Positions 27,340 through 53,367 of a stretch of DNA of 54,160 nt are shown here, in pieces. The stretch's first letter is position 1; every line of letters starts with the position of its first letter. Made by a program: the position numbers and the translations under genes. The stretch comes from a virus. Taxonomy: Duplodnaviria > Heunggongvirae > Uroviricota > Caudoviricetes. The DNA is taken from the IMG/VR virus record IMGVR_UViG_3300029305_003293, positions 1 to 54,160 of that record. One strand, given 5' to 3'. The notes under the pieces are model-generated. The model was not told the DNA's origin, did not search any database, and worked only from the letters and a program-made list of their open reading frames with translations.

Positions 27340-27379
27340 AATGGGATTAGATTATGACAAATAATCTAATCCCATTTTT
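27340..27379 (+). terminator. Rho-independent terminator followed by TACTATAT
   Basis: 16-bp stem AATGGGATTAGATTAT/ATAATCTAATCCCATT with loop GACAA and a T-tract. Confidence 0.8.
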
Positions 27380-27416
27380 ACTATATTATAAAAAAAAATG
27401 AGAAGGAGGAGTAAAA

Positions 27417-30400
27417 GTGAGTTCAGCACCGTTGAATATTTATCGTGGATCTTTGGCATCTATTAAAGAAAAAATGCCTAATATTGTTGATGGCTCTTTA
27501 TACTTTGCAGTTGATACAAAGTAGATTTATTTAGACTATGCGGCAGACAATGATATTTATGAAGGTCCAGAACGTATTAAATTCGGTGGCTCTACCGGTA
27601 TTTGGTATGGTTTAAAAACTGACGCTGGCGAAGAAGGTAAAGTTGTATTTAGATTACAAGAGTTAGAAGATACAACTGAATATCCTTCTCCAAAAGACTT
27701 AATTCTTAATACTGATGGCTCTTTTTTCAAAGTTGATGAAGTTGATGCTGAATTAAATGAGATTATCGCTACACGCTTGACTGTCTCTGGTGTAGGTGGC
27801 GGTGGTGGCGGACCAGGAGCTTCAGGTTCTTCCTATATCGACTATAAACGTGTCGGTATTAAAAATCGCTATTTCTCTGTACAAGATGACAGAATGTTAT
27901 TAACTCTTTAGGCATATAGCACCGCGGGAGAAGATACTGAAATGGGTGCTACAATTTATTTAATTGATGCTGGTGGAGTATAGCATGAAATTGGTACAGT
28001 TAATAATATAGGACAAAGCTGGGGCGATCAAGAGCCAATCTCAATTGACATTAAAGCTTTTTTGACCGCTTATGGATATGTTCAAAATACTGGATATAAT
28101 ATTGAAATTTCTTTATTTGACGACGTTGGAAATGTTTCTTTAAAAACAATTCCTTATACTGTTACTATTTTTGATATGCAAGTTAAAGCGCAAATTTCAA
28201 ACGTAGGAACTCAAAAAGGCGGTTTTACTTATCGTTGTATCCCAGTATTCTACACAGAATTAGAAAATGTACAACTTTTTTATCGAGTTGTAAATATTGC
28301 TTATGGCCAAGTCGTATAGACAAACTATCCAGAAGAAGGAATTAAATTAGCAAAAGCAGATAATAATAATACTCAATTAATTGATATCTTGGGCGATATT
28401 CCTGTTGGAGCTTATAAGATTCAATCTTGGGTTAGTGCGACGATCCCAGGTACAAACGGATTAACCGTTGTTGAGAGCAACCCTCTTGAACAGACTTTCA
28501 TTCGTCAATCTGCCGATTCTAGTGACCCAATTCTTTCTATTAATTTCCCAATTGAAACTTTTTAGCAATATAATATTATTCAAATTCCTTATTTTATTGC
28601 TTATGGTAATTCAACTATTAGCGTTAAAAGAATTATTGAATACACTAATCCAGATGGAATTACATCAACTACCTCAGAAAATTTAACTCAAGCTACAGAG
28701 ACTGAACACATTTGGTCTTATCGCTTTATGGAAATGGGTTCATATAAATTTACCGTATAGATCGGTGCAAATACAATGAATGCATCTACTTCTGATTTGT
28801 ATCATATTGAAAAATCAGCTTCTGTAATGCCTGAAGTCACTGCGGCGGGTCTATTATTGAATCTTAAAGCAAATAAAGATAATGATGCAGTTGATCGTGA
28901 TTCTTGGACTTCGGTTACTTCTTCATAGATTGTAAAGAGTTCTTTGAGTGGTTTTAACTGGATCTCAAATGGTTGGAGAACCATTGATGGCGAGACTAGT
29001 TTGTATTTAAATAATGGAGCCAAGGTTGTAGTTCCATATTCTCCTTTTGCCTCTGCGGCAGAACAATTTGGTACTACTATTGAATTTGACGTAAAAATTT
29101 CTAATATTAGAGATCGTCATGCAGAATTAATTAAATGTGTTTCAAGAGATTCAGATGGAACTCTTCATGTAGGAACAATTATTAATGGTGACTATTTTAC
29201 ATTAAATAGTAGCTCTTAGAAACCAATTGAAGATTATAATGAATTAGGATATATTAACTTAAGTCGTGCGGGTATGACTGCAACTTACGTACCTGGAAAA
29301 CGTGTTCGTATTAGCTTTGTTATTACTCCTGATGGATATAGCCCATATTCTGGTATGGCTTCCAATATGATTTGTACTTATGTTAATGGTGTTTTATCTG
29401 GATTCGTTGCTTATGGCGAAGATACTTTCTTGAATTCACCTTCATAGGATATGAATTCTGGTAAATTTATTTTTGATTCTACCTATGCAGATATTGATAT
29501 TTATAACTTACGCGTATATCAATCTGCTTTAACAGATTAGGCAATTTTAGGAAATTATCTTGCTTCTATTGCTGATTTTGATGAAGCGGCAACAAGATGG
29601 GCCGATAATAAAGAATTGCTTGATGATGATGGAGAAATTAGTCTTACTAAAGTAATTGCGCAAAAGAATATTCCATATTTATTAATGCGCGGTGGTATCA
29701 CTGTTGATGGTAAAAAAGGCAAGAACTTTATTACCCCTATCACAACAGGATTGCCAACTAGCAAAAAAGATTATAAACTTGTTGACGTATGCTATATTGA
29801 TCCAGACCACCCAGAAAATAATATCGGTGGATTAGATTCTGCTAATCGTAAAGAATGGGTTATTTATGCACAGGGAACTTCCTCTATGGAATATCCTATC
29901 AAGAATTTACGTTCAATTTATTCTCGTGAAAATCGCGGAGAAACTTATAAATTATTTGAAGATCTTCCAGCAGTTGATTTATTCTGCTTTAAAGCTGACT
30001 ATATGGAATCTTCTAGCGCGCATAATACGGGTCTTGGTAATATGCTCAATGAACTTTATGGTAATATTAAGCCACCTTCTCGTTTAATTGAAGATACTGA
30101 TGAAAATGGTAATAAATATGACTATGTAACTGCCATTAAAGGACGTCCTTGTGTAATTTTCTTCAAAGAAACTTCAACAGATCCAAAAGAATTACGTAAA
30201 ACTGCGGATAATTTCCAGGGTTATAAATATATTGGACGTTATAATTTTAACTTAGATAAATCAACTCATGAACCTTTTGGATTTTACAGTGATTATGATA
30301 AACATTATGGCGTCGCAGTAATGAATCCACCAGCTCTTGGTCCAAATTATGCTGATAATTTACAAGATGTTAGTCCTATTGATAATCTTTATCATGCCAC

Positions 30401-33400
30401 TATTGATGAAAATCCTGAGGAAGGAAAAGACTATTATAAAGATCCCGAGGGAAAAGTCAAATGGACTTGGGAAGAAATTGCTGAATGGGATGCAGAAGAA
30501 GGCGAATTTGTCTGGAAATGTAAATCTCCTGCTTATGAATATCGCGGAACAGAAGGTACTAATTCAATTTAGGTTTGGGAATGTTTGGATAACAATAAGC
30601 CATTAACTCACTTCACTTAGCATTGGTATGAGGAAGATGATCCAGAAAATGCTTTATGGGTAGAAAATTTTGAATCTCGTTATCCAGAGTATGAAGTACA
30701 AGAAATGTCTGACAAACGTGACTTACAGCGTTTGGTTAATTGGATTGCAGATACAAACTGCATGTATACGACTTCACATGAAGAGACTACAATAAATGAA
30801 AAAGGTGAAGAAGTTACTTCTACTGTTACCGAATATTTCTTGCATTCTCATGAACCATCTTATGAGGATATTATTAATGAGAATATACCAGAAGACTTAA
30901 CTCCATTGGTACCAGCTATTGCAGGAAGCAAGTTACCAGCAATTGAAAGTTATTCTGAATCAACTGGAATTTATACTTATAAAGGTATTGATGGTTATTT
31001 ATATGATTCTTATGAGTATCGTTTATACAAATTCAGAAAAGAATTTGATGATTACTTTGAATCAGACTTAACAATGGTTTATTATATAATTTCAGAATTC
31101 TTGCTTATGACAGATAGCCGCGCAAAGAATATGATGCTCTGTACCTTTACCGCACGTTGTACTGACAGAAATGGTGCAAGCAAAACAAAATGGTTCCCAA
31201 TCTTTTATGATATGGATACTGGTCTTGCTGTTAATAACATGGGTTAGTTGAAATTTACATATAAAGATGAAGACTGGTATGAAGATATTTTTAATGCCGA
31301 AGCCGGATATGTGAATCAAAAGGGTACTATTAATAAGAGTTATAGTGCTTTATGGTCTAATATTCAACTTACTATGTATGATAGATTAAAGGCAGTTTAT
31401 ACAACATTGAGAAATGGTGCTTTTAATTTTGAATATCTGTTAAATGGTTATAATAAAAATCAAGCTGAAAAATGGAATGAAACATATATTAATAAAGACG
31501 CTTATTTAAAATATGTTGAACCATATGTAAATCCGACTTCTTGGAAAGTTATGATTGATGCTTGCCAAGGAACTCGTTCTTTACATAGAGAGCAATTCCT
31601 TGAAAGACGTTTCTTATATATGGATAGTAAATATGCTTATATTAAGGGCGGCATGGGCTTGTCTTTACGTGTTAACGACTTGTAGAAAAATCCAGGTGAT
31701 ATCTTTAATTTTGATATTACAACAAATGATGCTATGTATTTAGTATCTCAATTTGGTAATGAGCAGCCTGTTCGTAGTGATAATGTGATTGGAGAAAATA
31801 CTACTGTTAATATTAGCACTCGCGCACCAAGCGGTGGCCAAGTTGGTGAGCAACCATATTATTTATATTTAATTAATAATATAAGAAGTTTTGGCGATAT
31901 GTCTGATATGGGTATTCAAACATTTGACCCATTCCAAACTGCGCCTGTTGTTCCTAGCGATCCAAGCGTTGTTTATGATAATAATTTGAAGTTAGAAAAT
32001 TTAGTATTAAGTACAAATGAGCCGGGTTATGAGTATGAATTAAAACTCAATAACCGCATGGCGGCATTGAATATTGTCAAGTATTTCCCAATGCTAAAAG
32101 ATTTAAATGTTGGCTATTGGAATAACTTAGGTACTCTTGATTTAAGATATAACAAAAACTTATAGACGCTTGAAGCATTTGGTACTAAATTAAGTTCTTG
32201 CCAATTCCCAGAAGGCGGAGTTTTAGAACATTTACAGTTACCTGCTACTTTAAATAGAATTGCTTTAACTGGTCATTATAATCTTAATACTATTGAGTAT
32301 AAAGATTATGCTTCAAATTATGAAAATAATTAGGTAAATATTGATATTACGACAAATAGAGATAATGCTTGGGATAAATTAATTGGTTTGTCTATTGAGC
32401 AATGTCCTCAATTAGACACAAAAGCTATCTTCAAAGCAATGAAAGAAGATAACTTATAGATCTATTTCCCAGACTTAGATTGGACTATTGAAGCTAATGA
32501 ATTAACTGTAGAAGATAATGTAATTCAAAGTATTGATATCTTAGATAAGTTATTAAGACAATCTGGTTATAATGGTGAGTTAAGAGATTAGCCAGTATTA
32601 GATGCGGATGGCCAAGAGACTTATGATGATAATGGCAATAAAATTACTGTACCTGCGACAAATAGAAGTTATGTTGGAGGACATATTTTAATTAAAAACA
32701 AGGGAACAAATATTGGTATTGATGAAGCTTTGATTTATACCAAATATACTAAGTATTATCCATTACTTGTTATTGAAGTTGAAGAATGGAACGATAACTG
32801 TGTTCGCGCTTATAGTTTAAATACTCATGATGCGAATGGTGAGTTAATGGTTGGTAACAGTCCTAAATTTACTTCTGAAAATGTAAATAGTGAATTTACA
32901 TTAGAGAAAGTATTTGGAACCGCCGGTAATCCAATTATCGCGCCTATTGAAAAATCTCCAACTAATGAGTATGTTTTCGAGTTCAGAGGATGGAATACTG
33001 AAGGCGTTTTAACTTTTACTGAAAGAGATTATAAAACTGCTGACAATACTATCCAAGAGTCTGTTCAACTTGCTGAAAATGCTTGCGCAGAAAAATTAAT
33101 TATTGCTTGGGAAGGTAATGAATATGTTGCCGCAAATGGATTTGATTTTAGTAAAGTCTTTGATGAAAATAATCAAGAATTAAATATTTATCCTACTTTT
33201 GTTGCTACTGTAAGAACTTGGACTGCAACATTTATTGACGGTTTAGGCAATACTATTAGTACTCAAGCAGTTCGTTATGGTGAAAAAGCAGAAATTCCAA
33301 CTATGGTGCCTATTAAATTAGAATTAGATCCTAATTTAAAAGATAAAGCTTATGTATATCCTTTCTTGCGCTTTGGTTCAGCATCAGAAACATTTATCGT

Positions 33401-34475
33401 AGTAAATGATAAAACTTATGAAGCGGTATATGCCACAAGTAAAGTTGATATCCATAATGCCGAGGTTTTACCTTCTGCTGATTATTTTGATTTCAATACT
33501 AGCACTGGAACATTAACTTTATCTAATCGTTATTTCGCCGAGGCAATTTGCTTCCCAAAAATGTACAATGGCGAAATAGTGAAAAAAGTTCAAATCGCAT
33601 CTGGCTTAAAGATGAAGCGTATTTATTTCGAATTATAGAATGAAATTCTTGAAATCGGCGAAAGAATATAGACTGAAAATACTGATTTAGAATTTGTTGA
33701 ATTTAGTAAATTGGGAGCACTGGAAAAAATAGGTTCTTACGCTTTTGACGGCTGCGTTAATTTGACGATTGACGTATTGCCTTCTGTGGAATGGGTTGAT
33801 TCATTTGCTTTCAGAAAATGTACCTCTTTACAAATTCCTAGTTTCCCACAGAATTTAACTCAAATTAGTATGAATGCTTTCCATAGTACAACAGGAATGG
33901 GGGCGGTAGTTTTTAATTGTCCTCTCTTGGAAAAAATTGATACAAACTGTTTCCAATATTCTACTTTAACAGTTGTTGGAGAAAGCTTGCCTGACAGTGT
34001 AACTGAAGTTGGTGCTAATGCATTCGCTTATTGTCCTAATTTAGTAATGAATTTCAATAATGGCTCTGGTGCGGCAGGATTAAAAACTATCAATAATGCG
34101 GCGTTCGGTTATGATCCGCAAGTAAACTTAGCGAATTTACCTGCTAATGTTGAAACTATTGCATCTAATGCTTTCCGTGCTACAGCATAGGCAGCCGGTG
34201 GTGGCGTAGTAGAATATATAGGAGTTAGTATGTTCCCAGCTTCTGTTACTACTATTGGTGAGAATGCTTTCCGTTATAAGACTTCTCTTACTGGCGTATT
34301 GAATTTAAGTCAATGTACTAATTTGGAAGATTGGAATAATAACAAAGGTATTAACGCAAAAGCATTCGAAAAAGTCTTAAATCTTTCTACTATTATCGTT
34401 CCTAAAAATAGAAAATTCACTATTCCTGAAGATCGTTGGGGAGCGGGAATAGAAGTTGCTATTGAGGAGGCATAA
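27417..34475 (+). CDS. Giant multidomain virion protein (2352 aa): LamG-like, CotH-kinase-like, LRR and BspA-type LRR regions (TAG=Gln)
   Basis: GTG after GGAGGAG; nine ORF-track fragments are in one frame to TAA 34473-34475. CotH-like motifs: AQGTSSMEYPIKN, FKADYMESSSAHN, GRYNFNLDK, DSRAKN, WFPIFYDMD. BspA-like repeats include KIGSYAFDGCVNL and EVGANAFAYCPNL. Confidence 0.75.
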
Positions 34476-45951: not shown

Positions 45952-46710
45952 ATGAGTGGTTTTATTACTCGTCGTGGCGGAGGAAGTAATTTAAAAATTA
46001 TTCAAGCAACTTCATTACCATCAAAAGGAAAAGATGGACAATTAATTATTATTAGCTCTATTCCAATTAATAATATTACTTATAATACAACAACAACTAA
46101 ACCAAGCAATCCTGTAAATGGAGATCTTTTTATTTGTTTTGGGATATCTGATTATCATAAAGTATTACAATATACAACAACAAACTCTTGGAATAGCGTA
46201 GATAGTTATGTGTGGATCAATAGTAGTTGGATTTAGTTTACTCGTAAATCTTTAGTAATTTTTGATGGAATTTTACATGATTCTTATTCAACTTTACAAG
46301 TAAGAAAAGGTTCTGGTGGTTCATCAGGATATTGGAAAGTAACTTCTTCAGTCTTAAAATTATATGCTCCTGCAGCGACAGAGTCTTGCTAGTTAGGTAG
46401 TTTTTCTAATAAAATTGATACTGGAGCTTGGTCAACTTGTTCTGTTAAAGCTACGGTGCGAGGATGGAATGGTGGTTGGTGGGGTTTTGCGCCGGCTTTT
46501 GCTTCTGTGGGAATATTATCTTCTAATTATACCACTGGATATACAAAAATTCAAAGACCAACTACTACATCCAATTCATCTGTCACAGGAATTTATAATA
46601 TTGATGTTAGCAGTTTAACCGGGACTTACGATTTAGTATTTGGTATTGCAGGATCGGGAGGGTCTAATTATACAGGAGAATTTAATATTAGTTCTATTAT
46701 TTTAACTTAA
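45952..46710 (+). CDS. Receptor-binding-type tail protein (252 aa, two TAG)
   Basis: MSGFITRRGGGS start; ORFs 45952 and 46456 are in frame; Ser/Thr/Gly beta-rich C-terminus. Confidence 0.7.
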
Positions 46711-46718
46711 AAATTTTT

Positions 46719-46754
46719 CGGGTGCACTTTGTTAAGAAGTCGCACCCAATTTTT
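46719..46754 (+). terminator. Terminator hairpin followed by TACTATAT
   Basis: GGGTGC-ACTT...AAGT-C-GCACCC followed by AATTTTT. Confidence 0.65.
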
Positions 46755-46763
46755 ACTATATAG

Positions 46764-47090
46764 TGAAGGGAAGGAGATTTCCTTAACAAGAGCAATTCTT
46801 TACAGTAGTAAAGTCTGGGCGACGACGGTTAAGAAATCATATCTAAACTTCAAGATATAATGTGAGGGAAGGAACCAGTGGGCTCCTTCAGTAACTTCAC
46901 AGTTAACCTACGCGAGTATGTTTATCCACAGTGTTGTTACAGACGCTGCTGGAAAAACATATGGAGGATTAATAAGCAGATGTTGTGTTGGCACTAACGC
47001 CGTTTTGAGATATACATATAATTATAGGGTCTGCTTCCTCAGTTTAAATTTGGTGCGCCCTTTGGGCACCTGTGGGTAAACTACTTCAGC
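46764..47090 (+). ncRNA. Candidate structured non-coding RNA (family unrecognised)
   Basis: A ~330-nt non-coding gap, more GC-rich than its flanks, with at least 12 nested complementary pairings (listed in findings). Strand is inferred from the upstream -10-like TACTAT. Confidence 0.6.
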
Positions 47091-47125
47091 GACAGGGCAA
47101 GAATATTGGAGAGTTTTTGGTTTTT

Positions 47126-48517
47126 ATGTTTTTAGGTTTAACATTAAAGAAAACGAGCAATATTAACTACCATGGGGCCACTGAAGTAGTTTTAGAGCTT
47201 GAGGACTATATAGCAGGATGCGTCGCCCAAGAAATCGGCGATGCCCATTTAGAAGCATGTAAGGCGCAAGCAATCGCCGCGCGAACGAATTGCCAGCCTT
47301 ATATATTAAATAACAAAATGGCATCAGACCAATCCTCAACTTTCCAAGCATACGAAGGTTCCAAAGCCAAATATCCTAATCCAAACAAAGCAGCCCAAGA
47401 GACAAAATCAATGGTTCTAATTTACAATGGCAAAATTGCCTTACCGGCATCTTTTTCGGCAAACAATGGAGGCAAAATGACATCATCCGCTGAACGCTGG
47501 GGAGGCACGCGCAACTGGCTCATTTCGAAGGAAGATCCATATGATGTAGGTCAAAAGACCGGTCACGGGGTCGGAATGAGCTAGCGTGGAGCCAAACGAA
47601 TGGCCGAATTGGGTTATACTTATTTAGAAATTTTACAGTTCTATTATCCAGGAACTGAAATAGGCTTATTAAATGAAGATGGGAGTGTTAAACTTATGGA
47701 TAAGGCTTCTATCGTCAAAGAATGGGCGCTATCAAAAAAAGATTGTGGATATGTTTGGGGCGCGACCGGATATACCCTTACTCAGTCTAAATTAAATGAG
47801 TTGATTAATCAATATCCGCAATATGTTTCGCAATCCAAAAACGGCAAATGGATCGGCAAGCAAGTTTTTGATTGTGCTTCTTTTGTTCGATTCGCTTTAA
47901 AAGAAATTAATATATCAATGGTTTCCGGGGCTTCCAGCCAATGGAAAAAGACTAATTGGGAAGTAAAAGGAACAATTGATACTTTACCTAAAGATAAAGT
48001 ATGTATTTTATATCGTGAAGCACCTACTGCAAATCCAATGTAGCATACCGGCATTTATCTCGGTGATGGCAATGTAATGGATGCAAGAGGTAGTTCATCT
48101 GGAGTAGTTTATTCTGCTCTTGGTAAATATCCTTGGACTCATTGGGCAATTCCAAAAGGTCTTTACGATAATTTAGATTTAAAAGATTAGGAGGTTTTAC
48201 CAGTGCTTTATCAAGCAACAGTCGTAGCAACTTCTGGATCAACAGTAAGAATGCGTTCAGAAATGTCAAGCGCAGCAAGTGTTCTCAAGCAAATCAAGCT
48301 TGGTAAGACCGTTGATGTAGTAGCCGAATATGATGGTTGGAAAAAGATTGTTTATGAAAATCAAACCGGCTATATGATGGATAAATTTTTACAGAAGATT
48401 GAGGCTCCTACCCAGGGAACTTGGTATGTAAAAGTAGAATGTGGGAGTGAAGAAAATGCAAGAGCAATTGCAGAAGCCCTTAAACTCTGCGGCAACGCAA
48501 CGGCGTTAGAGGGCTAA
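47126..48517 (+). CDS. Endolysin: SpoIID/LytB-like + NlpC/P60-like + SH3b (463 aa, three TAG)
   Basis: GHGVGMS*RGA matches the SpoIID motif GHGVGMSQxGA. Also FDCASFV and M*HTGIYLGDG (NlpC/P60 Cys/His) and VRMRSEMS...GWKKIVYENQTGYM (SH3). All in one frame to TAA 48515-48517. Confidence 0.9.
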
Positions 48518-48785
48518 AAAGAAAAAGAAATTAGAATTTTCTAAAAAATTAACTATTGTAGATATCATCACTTGGGGAGTAATTACTGTATTACTTCTTG
48601 TAGTAATGCTTGTTTAGCCGAGTCTCGCAACTTATTGTGTTGGTATCTTTAACGCGACAACCGCGGCATATGTATCATTGAGGTTGGGCTACACCGCTAA
48701 AGCGGGCGTAGAGAACTATAAAAAAATTTCGCAGACCTACACTGAAATTGCCACTGCGGCAAACGAAGTAGAGTCTAATGGATAA
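48456..48785 (+). CDS. Putative holin-like membrane protein (109 aa, two TAG; missing from ORF track)
   Basis: ATG after GGGAG, overlapping the lysin 3' end. KKKLEFSKKL is followed by two hydrophobic segments and YTAKAGVEN. The start is uncertain. Confidence 0.6.
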
Positions 48786-52243: not shown

Positions 52244-52811
52244 ATTTTTCTACAAAATCTTCAATTTCAGGATAAACAACGGGTAATCTGTTTAAGCGCT
52301 CAATCCAAGGCTCAATATCACCATTACCACCCCAGGCTTTATATTGATCATATCTCTTTTTAAAGTTTGCTTTCTATTGAGGCGTCCACATTTTATTAGC
52401 TAAGTAAGACTTTCCATCTACAATTAAATCTCGTTGATAAATTTGGATGAAAGCATCTGTATTTTTAGCTTCTAATGAATCTAATCGATCATGAAATTGC
52501 GTATTGTTATTTTTAATTTCTTTAAGAATTGCTTCAAGCAATAATTGAGTTGTACTTTCTTTATTTTCTAATGCTTGAATTTTTCCTTCTAATTCAGAAG
52601 CATCTGCGCAATGATGATTTTCAAGCGCAGTGATTCTTGATTCAAGATCACTTTTCATTTTAGTAGAACGATTATCCCATTCTTCTTGGTCTTCAATTTC
52701 TTGACCTTTTTTATGAGTTTTAATAAAAGGTTTAATTAAATAAGTAACAACCGCAACGCAAATTACTGGAACGCCCCAAGAAATAACTTTTTCCAAAATT
52801 AAATCCACCAT
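52242..52811 (-). CDS. Putative holin-like membrane protein (189 aa, one TAG)
   Basis: N-terminal transmembrane helix and a coiled coil. Read-through of TAG gives YDQYKAWGGNGDIEPWIERLNRLP, the Y..Y...GGNG pattern seen in Bacillota phage holin-like proteins. Confidence 0.6.
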
Positions 52812-52881
52812 TGGAAACTTCCACTCCTTTCATAAAGAATAAAAGTAGGTTTAGATGGATTAATAAAAAGCGCCTAAAGTG

Positions 52882-53367
52882 TTAATCCCACTCTAAGCGC
52901 TTATCTTCTTGAATACTGGCTGAATAGCCTATACAAATCGCATCCGATTCGTCTTGCGTGCATTTTAAATTGTAAGTATCTTTTACCCACTATTGAGCAA
53001 TCTTCTTTTGGTTTTCTCTATGCTTATCCTACTTCTTTAAGAATTCGCAATCAGAACGCCAGTCAGAAGAATAAACCATTTTATATTTAATTTTCTTTTC
53101 TACGAGTAAAACTAAGATTCCGCCTTGAACTTGTGCTAATTTCTAAAAAGTTTGCACATCTCCATGCTGCATCTAAATGTTTTCTAAAACGACAAGGTCT
53201 GGTTCATACTACTAGATTTTGCTTTCAATTTCCTTACAAAGGCTATGAATACGAACAGCAATGTCGTCATGCGTCTTTTCCCAATGTCCAAAATCAATTA
53301 GGTCGCCATCTCGGAATACTGACCATCCGCTAGTCCTCGTTGCTTGATCTAATGCCAAAATTGTCAT
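52882..53367 (-). CDS. ruvC: RuvC-like Holliday junction resolvase (161 aa, six TAG)
   Basis: ILALDQATRTSGW, VVLENIQ, LAQVQG and DESDAICIG provide the acidic RuvC catalytic motifs; GGAGG RBS. Confidence 0.8.

What the first reader, a model, noticed from the sequence alone, without database searches (positions are those of the whole stretch)
46764..47090. Highly structured ~330-nt non-coding element directly upstream of the endolysin
Seen pairings: TGAAG 46764/CTTCA 47084 (closing); AAGGA 46771/TCCTT 46780; CTTTAC 46798/GTAAAG 46808; GGTTAA 46827/TTAACC 46903 enclosing ATATCT 46839/AGATAT 46853, TGTGA 46861/TCACA 46897 and GAAGGA 46868/TCCTTC 46884; TATGTTT 46917/AAACATA 46955 enclosing TCCA/TGGA and CAGTGT/ACGCTG; GAGG 46964/CCTC 47037 with AAGCAGAT 46974/GTCTGCTT 47029; AGTTTA 47041/TAAACT 47077 enclosing GGTG..CCC-TTT-GGG..CACC. 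It starts just after a terminator and a -10-like TACTAT, and ends ~35 nt before the lysin ATG. Other intergenic gaps here are much shorter and AT-rich. I cannot match it to a known family. Inference: a new phage ncRNA, ribozyme or 5' leader that times lysis, possibly linked to recoding.
Basis: partly seen in the sequence, partly recalled or inferred. Interest (0 to 1): 0.8.

Follow-up and report, generated by a model that had tools for sequence, protein, structure and literature searches.

The report
Folded RNA leader before phage lysin
The gene-free stretch in front of the cell-wall-cutting lysis gene of this stop-codon-recoded phage is a real, conserved, elaborately folded RNA of a family not in Rfam. 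It is most likely a control leader for the lysis gene, but what it senses is unknown.

Summary
Window 46711-47125 has no conserved reading frame, is GC-richer than its surroundings and folds better than shuffled sequence. The same element lies directly 5' of the SpoIID/NlpC-P60/SH3 lysin in eight related TAG-recoded phage contigs, whatever gene lies upstream.

Base-pair covariation supports two 5' hairpins (P2, P4), a hairpin P6 and a stem P7.

No Rfam family matches the window or its relatives. It is not an intron, because the lysin is complete from residue 1. It is not a T-box.

There is no terminator between the element and the lysin start, the spacing to the start is constant, and a promoter-like -10 precedes it. 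This makes a cis-acting 5' leader the best reading (about 0.5). A second, local partner for one strand of P5 is also conserved, which suggests a two-state switch. However, thermodynamic modelling shows no consistent masking of the ribosome site.

Expression, ligand, ribozyme activity and any link to recoding remain untested. I found only nine members. The scan has reported other undescribed lysis-region RNAs, but not this family.

The parts
46720..46754 (+). Intrinsic-terminator-like hairpin (46720-46747) plus T run (46750-46754) ending the upstream tail-fibre-like gene
   Evidence: Read. Relatives have a different hairpin sequence at the same place (alignments). It is absent in L004, where the upstream genes are on the other strand. 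The simple scan missed it because the loop is longer than 8.
46749..46764 (+). Promoter-like element: T-rich tract and a -10 hexamer at 46759-46764
   Evidence: The hexamer keeps A at position 2 and T at position 6 in all seven homologues while positions 3-5 vary. It is kept in L004, which lacks the terminator. The 13-base motif at 46749-46761 recurs once, at 27374-27386, again just after a terminator and in front of the 2352-aa ORF 27417-34475. Inference, not shown.
46771..46784 (+). P1, 5'-proximal hairpin
   Evidence: A hairpin of -3.4 to -7.9 kcal/mol lies within the first 34 nt of all seven homologues, with different sequences.
46798..46813 (+). P2 hairpin, 6 bp, AG-start tetraloop
   Evidence: helix 1: 97% of cells paired, 3 of 6 pairs changed on both sides.
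46814..46860 (+). Most conserved block of the element, mostly unpaired in the consensus. It includes 46817-46821, the candidate 5' strand of a long-range pairing (P3).
   Evidence: Near-invariant across all clades, including the divergent L140. The P3 partner at 47056-47060 pairs in all homologues, but only through one-sided (C/U opposite G) changes. This was read and is not proven.
46861..46901 (+). P4: 7-bp base, 5-nt asymmetric internal loop (46890-46894), 9-10-bp apical stem, tetraloop 46877-46880 like that of P2
   Evidence: helices 2 and 3: 100% and 93% of cells paired, with 6 of 10 apical pairs changed on both sides. L140 keeps the base and second stem but carries an insert of about 90 nt at the tip.
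46914..46931 (+). X: 5' strand of the long-range helix P5 (5-bp extension, 1-nt bulge, 12-bp core)
   Evidence: Pairs with 47070-47086. On a plain MAFFT alignment of 8 sequences, 14 pairs give 93.7% paired cells, 4 pairs changed on both sides and a covariation score reached by 0/500 shuffles; slid controls give 30-44% paired. The hand-registered table gives 8 of 17 positions compensatory. The covariance model aligns the distant L005/L148 the same way.
46930..46947 (+). P6 hairpin
   Evidence: 3 of 5 pairs changed on both sides.
46950..46961 (+). X'1: local alternative partner of X, near-duplicate of the P5 3' strand
   Evidence: 9-10 bp with X in the window and main clade, 94% of cells paired but with only one-sided changes. 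In L005/L148 a hand-registered 6-7 bp version shows compensatory changes. The two states are within -5.9 to +4.0 kcal/mol of each other in four homologues.
46964..47040 (+). P7: long stem (outer 4 bp, inner 8 bp) with a variable tip
   Evidence: Alifold and the model alignment. L141 keeps the inner 8 bp through changes on both sides (read). L005/L148 have a different 7-bp stem that covaries between the two of them.
47052..47070 (+). Small hairpin P8. Its 5' strand (47056-47060) is also the candidate 3' strand of P8's rival, the long-range pairing P3.
   Evidence: P8 is 3-4 bp in most homologues, broken in L005 and absent in L140. P3 is possible in all of them. Unresolved.
47070..47086 (+). X'2: 3' strand of P5
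   Evidence: See P5.
47087..47125 (+). Conserved tail running into the lysin ribosome-binding site (47108-47113), with no terminator
   Evidence: Sequence conservation continues to the SD. The distance from P5 to the start codon is 35-39 nt in all homologues (counted). No terminator-like site was found.
47126..48517 (+). Endolysin, 463 aa with three in-frame TAG codons
   Evidence: Pfam SpoIID, NLPC_P60 and SH3_3. It aligns from residue 1 with the lysin of an element-less relative.

Best explanation
The element is the roughly 360-nt structured 5' leader of the lysin mRNA. It is probably transcribed from its own promoter just downstream of the terminator of the tail-fibre gene (inferred).

Fold:
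- The 5' domain has hairpins P1, P2 and P4 around a near-invariant 47-nt core.
- The 3' domain is a multi-stem junction (P6, P7) closed by a 17-bp long-range helix, P5.

Proposed action: I think it acts in cis, after transcription starts, to gate or time expression of the lysin and the holin-like gene behind it. One strand of P5 has a second, local partner that is also conserved, so the leader can probably adopt two states. The conserved 5' core, perhaps with the two identical tetraloop hairpins, would bind the factor that chooses between them. That factor could be a phage or host protein, a small molecule or an RNA.

Shown: conservation, covariation, fixed linkage to the lysin start, and the absence of a known family.
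Inferred: the transcription start, the switch and the output.
For: Distribution and linkage:
- There are nine instances. All lie directly 5' of orthologous lysins of 68-87% identity, and the upstream 300 nt is unrelated among them (about 50% identity).
- One carrier (L004) has divergent genes upstream on the other strand yet keeps the promoter-like motif and the element.
- Six loci with lysins of 45-54% identity lack the element, and there the lysin abuts the preceding gene.
- No terminator separates the element from the start codon, the P5-to-AUG spacing is 35-39 nt, and conservation runs into the SD.

Structure:
- Covariation supports P2 and P4 and P5 and P6.
- About 21 G-U cells in these helices would be A-C on the other strand, so the + strand, which is the lysin strand, is the one that folds.
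- The alternative pairing X:X'1 is conserved. The two states are nearly iso-energetic in the window and the main clade.
Against: - There are no expression data.
- Thermodynamic modelling gives no consistent masking or unmasking of the SD or AUG between the two states.
- In L005/L148 the long-range state is favoured by 14-16 kcal/mol, and L140 has no X'1. The switch may therefore not be general.
- X:X'1 shows no both-side change on the unbiased alignment.
- Nine members in four clades give limited statistical power.
- The promoter is a motif match only.
Confidence: 0.5

Rival explanations
1. It is a stable non-coding RNA in its own right, released from the 5' end of the lysin transcript or simply co-transcribed. 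It would act in trans or as a partner of a phage protein, in the manner of the large phage RNAs GOLLD and ROOL or of Y-RNA-like partners of Ro60.
For: - Its size and complexity are unusual for a leader.
- Two hairpins carry the same tetraloop, as protein-binding sites often do.
- Palindromic stretches could mediate self-association.
- This genome encodes a Ro60-like protein and other odd RNAs (earlier notes).
- In another genome the scan judged a 415-nt RNA beside a recoded lysin to be a separate gene (e1-1680391).
Against: - There is no terminator or obvious 3' end before the lysin RBS in any homologue.
- Spacing to the AUG is constant, and conservation continues into the SD.
- The element is always next to the lysin and never elsewhere. 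There is a single copy in the genome.
- No Rfam model of GOLLD, ROOL or YrlA matches.
Confidence: 0.25
2. It is a constitutive processing or stability element. The 5' hairpin would protect the mRNA, and the 17-bp bulged P5 helix would serve as an RNase III-type processing site, as in T7 early mRNAs or the lambda N leader. No sensing would be involved.
For: - A 5'-terminal hairpin is present in all homologues.
- P5 is a long, bulged duplex of the right size.
- No effect on the SD is predicted.
Against: - It does not explain the near-invariant 47-nt unpaired core, the conserved P4 internal loop or the conserved alternative partner X'1.
- 330 nt is far more than such sites need.
Confidence: 0.12
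3. It is a T-box-like or otherwise tRNA-sensing leader that opens lysin translation only when the phage's amber-suppressor tRNA is present, coupling lysis to recoding.
For: - All carriers are TAG-recoded.
- The lysin has three in-frame TAG codons.
- The genome encodes tRNA(CUA).
- A two-state element exists.
Against: - RF00230 does not match, and the T-box core motif is absent in all nine.
- No invariant UAG is displayed. The one recurrent UAG alternates with UGG and overlaps P7.
- No conserved uORF carries a TAG.
Confidence: 0.05
4. It is a self-cleaving or self-splicing ribozyme, or the remnant of an intron or mobile element.
For: - A pseudoknot-like order of long-range pairings (P3 with P5) is possible.
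- Phage lysin genes elsewhere do carry group I introns (my own knowledge).
Against: - No intron or ribozyme model matches, even at E<=10.
- The upstream gene ends with a stop codon and a terminator.
- The lysin aligns from residue 1 with an element-less orthologue, so there are no exons to join.
- There are no terminal repeats and only a single copy.
Confidence: 0.04
5. There is no function: it is a chance structure or a decayed coding sequence.
For: L140 has a 106-codon open frame across the element.
Against: - That frame is not shared, and all frames carry stops in the others.
- Compensatory changes occur in four helices.
- Blocks of the element are more conserved than the flanking gene.
Confidence: 0.02

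Closest known systems
RCd22 / abiF-motif RNA (Rfam RF03085) in the lysis module of Clostridioides difficile prophages (PMC12373285)
   Same: A structured RNA in the 5' untranslated region of a gene inside a phage lysis module. It is proposed to control the downstream gene in a riboswitch-like way.
   Different: - RCd22 precedes abiF, not the lysin.
- It acts by premature termination and binds the AbiF protein.
- It is an Rfam family, and that model does not match here.
- The present element has no terminator.
GOLLD and ROOL, large ornate phage/prophage RNAs (PMC12286853; PMC5737381)
   Same: Large, elaborately folded, phage-encoded RNAs of unknown function. GOLLD rises during lysis.
   Different: - They are 580-800+ nt and are independent genes, usually near tRNA islands.
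- They form homo-oligomeric cages.
- Their Rfam models do not match.
- The present element is about 330 nt, far from the tRNA island (109-123 kb) and fixed to the lysin start.
Riboswitch-type leaders with mutually exclusive helices, e.g. translational T-box leaders (Rfam RF00230)
   Same: A long 5' leader with a conserved sensing part and a strand that has two competing partners.
   Different: No T-box sequence, no specifier loop, no Rfam match, and no demonstrated masking of the SD.
Late leader of phage lambda (pR', 194-nt 6S RNA, tR') in front of the lysis genes S-R-Rz (my own knowledge)
   Same: A dedicated promoter and a non-coding leader immediately upstream of the lysis cassette, through which late expression is gated.
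   Different: The lambda leader works through a terminator and the Q antiterminator acting at the promoter. The present element has no terminator and a far more complex, covarying fold.

Membership tests
Any Rfam 15 family (4227 models) | Match to the covariance model at or near the gathering score | tested here: not met
   No hit at gathering score in the whole window. At E<=10 on 46600-47250 there were only three chance-level hits, none a structured-leader family. At E<=5 there were no hits inside the element in six relatives.
T-box leader (RF00230) | Conserved T-box sequence in an antiterminator/antisequestrator bulge | tested here: not met
   The core motif and a loose version are absent from all nine sequences, and there is no RF00230 hit.
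T-box leader (RF00230) | Stem I with a specifier loop displaying an invariant codon | tested here: not met
   The only conserved internal loop (46890-46894) is lost in L140. No invariant UAG is displayed.
Group I intron (RF00028) | Interrupts a gene whose exons join to a complete product | tested here: not met
   The upstream gene ends in TAA plus a terminator. The lysin aligns from residue 1 with an element-less orthologue.
Group I intron (RF00028) | Conserved catalytic core recognised by the family model | tested here: not met
   No RF00028 hit at E<=10.
GOLLD / ROOL / YrlA-type phage RNAs | Match to the family model; an independent gene, usually near tRNAs or a Ro60 gene | tested here: not met
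   No model hit. The tRNA island is about 60 kb away. No terminator of its own.
Riboswitch (general kind) | Conserved aptamer-like core with covarying helices | tested here: met
   the near-invariant block 46814-46860.
Riboswitch (general kind) | Mutually exclusive pairings that control a terminator or the SD | tested here: inconclusive
   Competing partners X'1 and X'2 are conserved and near iso-energetic in 4 of 6 homologues. No consistent effect on the SD is predicted.
Riboswitch (general kind) | Specific ligand binding | not testable with these tools
   Needs in-line probing or ITC.

The most novel reading that the evidence does not exclude
A new class of large two-state leader RNA that senses a phage- or host-derived signal and releases lysin and holin synthesis only then. 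One candidate signal is the amber-suppressor tRNA or another marker of the late, recoded phase of infection. This would add an RNA checkpoint on top of stop-codon recoding.
Probability: 0.12. Interest if true: 0.85.

Novelty: new variant of a known kind. Interest (0 to 1): 0.55.

Why it matters
- **Lysis timing.** Lysis timing is central to phage fitness. In recoded phages it is thought to be set by in-frame stop codons in lysis genes. A dedicated promoter plus a 330-nt covarying leader in front of such a lysin would be a second, RNA-based layer of control, absent from close relatives whose lysin is simply fused to the late operon.
- **A new large RNA.** Structured RNAs above 300 nt with no known family are rare, and they have repeatedly led to new biochemistry.
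- **Annotation.** Gene callers start the lysin inside the element in several database entries (170-173-aa products). That is probably wrong.

Tried and rejected
- **Searches that found no further members.**
  - BLASTN against INPHARED phages found no match.
  - The lysin-based search of IMG/VR found no relative.
  - Five pattern scans of IMG/VR, one of JGI metagenomes and one of GTDB genomes gave only chance or GC-rich hits. The first pattern was too loose and wasted a scan.
- **Covariance models.**
  - Its alignment A6 also contains reverse-strand and one spurious row, so I did not run the pair counter on it. I used a plain MAFFT alignment of the exact P5-to-P5 interval instead.
- **SD masking.** Modelling gave no consistent result. 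The "state B" energies are unreliable, because my way of forbidding pairs over-constrained the fold.
- **Other long-range pairings considered and not adopted.**
  - The 5' end with the 3' tail.
  - The 3' strand of P1 with the SD.
  - The conserved core with the SD region, which is 6-8 bp in the main clade only.
- **Chance features.**
  - A tetraloop-receptor-like motif in L002 is not conserved.
  - The start-stop minimal uORF at the base of P4 has no SD.
- **Not a gap.** The large "gap" 52364-53132 is coding on the minus strand.
- I derived the coordinates from earlier outputs instead.

Full report
**Setting**

The window is the first 54,160 bases of a 173,283-base IMG/VR phage record. Reading TAG as sense raises plus-strand ORF coverage from 35,964 to 52,392 bases. 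It also joins the lysin fragments into one 463-aa protein with SpoIID, NlpC/P60 and SH3 domains. The genome has 34 tRNA genes far outside the window, including one with anticodon CUA.

Under this code the stretch 46711-47125 is the only long plus-strand gap that is GC-richer than the window: 0.40 against 0.336, with other true gaps at 0.21-0.30. It lies between a 252-aa gene of no Pfam family, ending in TAA at 46710, and the lysin ATG at 47126.

**Is the structure more than chance?**

The 416-nt interval folds to -128.3 kcal/mol against -103.2 +/- 6.8 for dinucleotide shuffles, giving z = -3.67. The reverse strand scores similarly, z = -4.15, so energy alone does not give the strand. Two relatives give z = -3.5 and -4.5.

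**Relatives**

- BLASTN against phage records found no relative of the element, and the lysin-based locus search of IMG/VR found none either.
- Searching the protein collection with the first code-11 fragment of the lysin gave relatives at 68-87% identity.
- The contigs encoding these relatives all carry the element directly upstream of the lysin. They are L002, L003 (partial), L004, L005, L140, L141, L147 (partial) and L148.
- nhmmer E-values against them run from 1e-100 to 3.5e-4, and the window's own genome holds a single copy.
- The relatives' lysins are split at the same places by code-11 gene callers, and an upstream L148 gene needs three TAG codons read through. They are therefore TAG-recoded too.
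- Leader identity is 72-82% within clades and 52-60% between clades. The 300 nt further upstream are unrelated, at about 50%. L004 even has divergent genes on the other strand there. The element travels with the lysin, not with the upstream gene.
- Six loci with more distant lysins (45-54% identity) lack it: L142, L143, L144, L152, L153 and L154. In them the lysin abuts or overlaps the preceding gene.
- Pattern scans of IMG/VR, JGI metagenomes and GTDB genomes found no further member.

**Not coding, not an intron**

- Every frame has TAA/TGA stops in every full-length homologue, and the longest open stretches are not homologous.
- The window lysin aligns from residue 1 to residue 1 with the lysin of element-less L142, at 50% identity over 466 residues. 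No upstream exon is missing.

**Fold, 5' domain**

On a plain MAFFT alignment of six sequences, P2 (46798-46813) and P4 (46861-46901) give:
- 96.3% paired cells;
- 9 pairs changed on both sides;
- a covariation score of 0.49 against 0.23 for shuffles (0/500 as high);
- only 39-57% pairing when the partner is slid by 1-3 columns.

P1 (46771-46784) is a 5'-proximal hairpin in all seven full-length homologues, built from different sequences. P2 and P4 are capped by the same kind of tetraloop. Between them lies a 47-nt block (46814-46860) that is nearly invariant, even in the divergent L140.

**Fold, 3' domain**

RNAalifold and a covariance model both recover a long-range helix, P5, between 46914-46931 and 47070-47086. 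I aligned exactly the P5-to-P5 interval with MAFFT, which is not fitted to any structure. On that alignment of eight sequences:
- the 14 consistently aligned P5 pairs are 93.7% paired, with 4 changed on both sides;
- together with P6, the covariation score is reached by 0/500 shuffles;
- slid controls pair at 30-44%.

With registers set by hand, 8 of 17 P5 positions and 3 of 6 P6 positions are compensatory.

P7 (46964-47040) is kept in the window and the main clade, and L141 changes both sides of its inner stem. The L005/L148 clade has a different stem there, which covaries between those two.

The helices hold about 21 G-U cells, which would be A-C on the other strand. The folding strand is therefore the lysin strand.

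**Two partners for one strand**

- The 5' strand of P5 can also pair locally with 46950-46961 (X'1), which is a near-copy of the P5 3' strand.
- In five sequences X'1 gives 94% paired cells, but only one-sided changes.
- In L005/L148 a shorter version, hand-registered, shows U-A to C-G exchanges. L140 lacks it.
- Constrained folding puts the two states within -5.9 to +4.0 kcal/mol of each other in the window, L002, L004 and L141. In L005 and L148 it favours P5 by 14-16 kcal/mol.
- A second possible competition is between a long-range pairing of 46817-46821 with 47056-47060 and the small hairpin at 47052-47070. It rests on one-sided changes only.
- I could not show that either state masks the ribosome-binding site.

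**Boundaries**

- Upstream there is a terminator-like hairpin plus T run (46720-46754). Its stem differs in sequence in relatives.
- It is followed by a hexamer at 46759-46764 that keeps the two most diagnostic -10 positions in all homologues while the others vary.
- The 13-base motif around it recurs once in the genome, again behind a terminator and in front of a very large structural gene.
- Downstream there is no terminator, conservation runs into the SD, and the distance from P5 to the AUG is 35-39 nt throughout.

These points favour a leader over a separate gene.

**Known families**

- Rfam 15 gives nothing at gathering score in the window.
- It gives nothing meaningful at E<=10 on the region, and nothing inside the element in six relatives at E<=5.
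- The T-box core motif is absent.
- Full-text searches found no paper describing a structured RNA in front of a phage lysin. The nearest analogue is RCd22/abiF-motif RNA within the lysis module of C. difficile prophages (PMC12373285). The large phage RNAs GOLLD and ROOL are the nearest in size and mystery (PMC12286853).
- Earlier notes of this scan list several other undescribed RNAs in phage lysis regions in other genomes, one of them judged a separate gene. A look-up by sequence found no copy of this family elsewhere.

**Verdict**

This is a real, new, clade-restricted structured RNA. It is most likely the cis-acting leader of the lysin mRNA, with a possible two-state element. Its signal and output are unknown.

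Noticed in passing
window 27374-27416: The same 13-base T-rich/-10-like motif as at 46749-46761 follows a terminator hairpin here. It precedes the 2352-aa ORF 27417-34475. It is a candidate late-promoter motif of this phage.
   Followed up: partly
window 47072-47125 (and the same place in L002, L003, L004, L148, L140): A GTG/ATG inside the P5 3' strand is in frame with the lysin and gives an 18-codon N-terminal extension. Gene callers used it (170-173-aa database entries). The frame is broken in L141 and L005, so the extension is probably not real.
   Followed up: partly
L140 204-332: This divergent member carries an insert of about 90 nt at the tip of P4. It also has a non-conserved 106-codon open frame across the element.
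   Followed up: partly
L144 986-2119 and L152 124-546: Element-less relatives have a reverse-transcriptase gene (RVT_1) a few genes upstream of the lysin, followed by a CmpB-like membrane protein gene. This may be a diversity-generating or other retroelement near the lysis genes.
   Followed up: no
genome 116104-116196 and 109750-109821 (outside the window): ARAGORN calls a 93-nt tRNA with anticodon CUA that has a long extra arm, and a 72-nt tRNA with anticodon UCA. Yet only TAG, not TGA, looks reassigned in the window.
   Followed up: no
window 48441-48785: A 114-aa membrane-type ORF with two TAG codons overlaps the 3' end of the lysin gene and is a likely holin. It has only a weak sub-threshold Pfam hit.
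   Followed up: no
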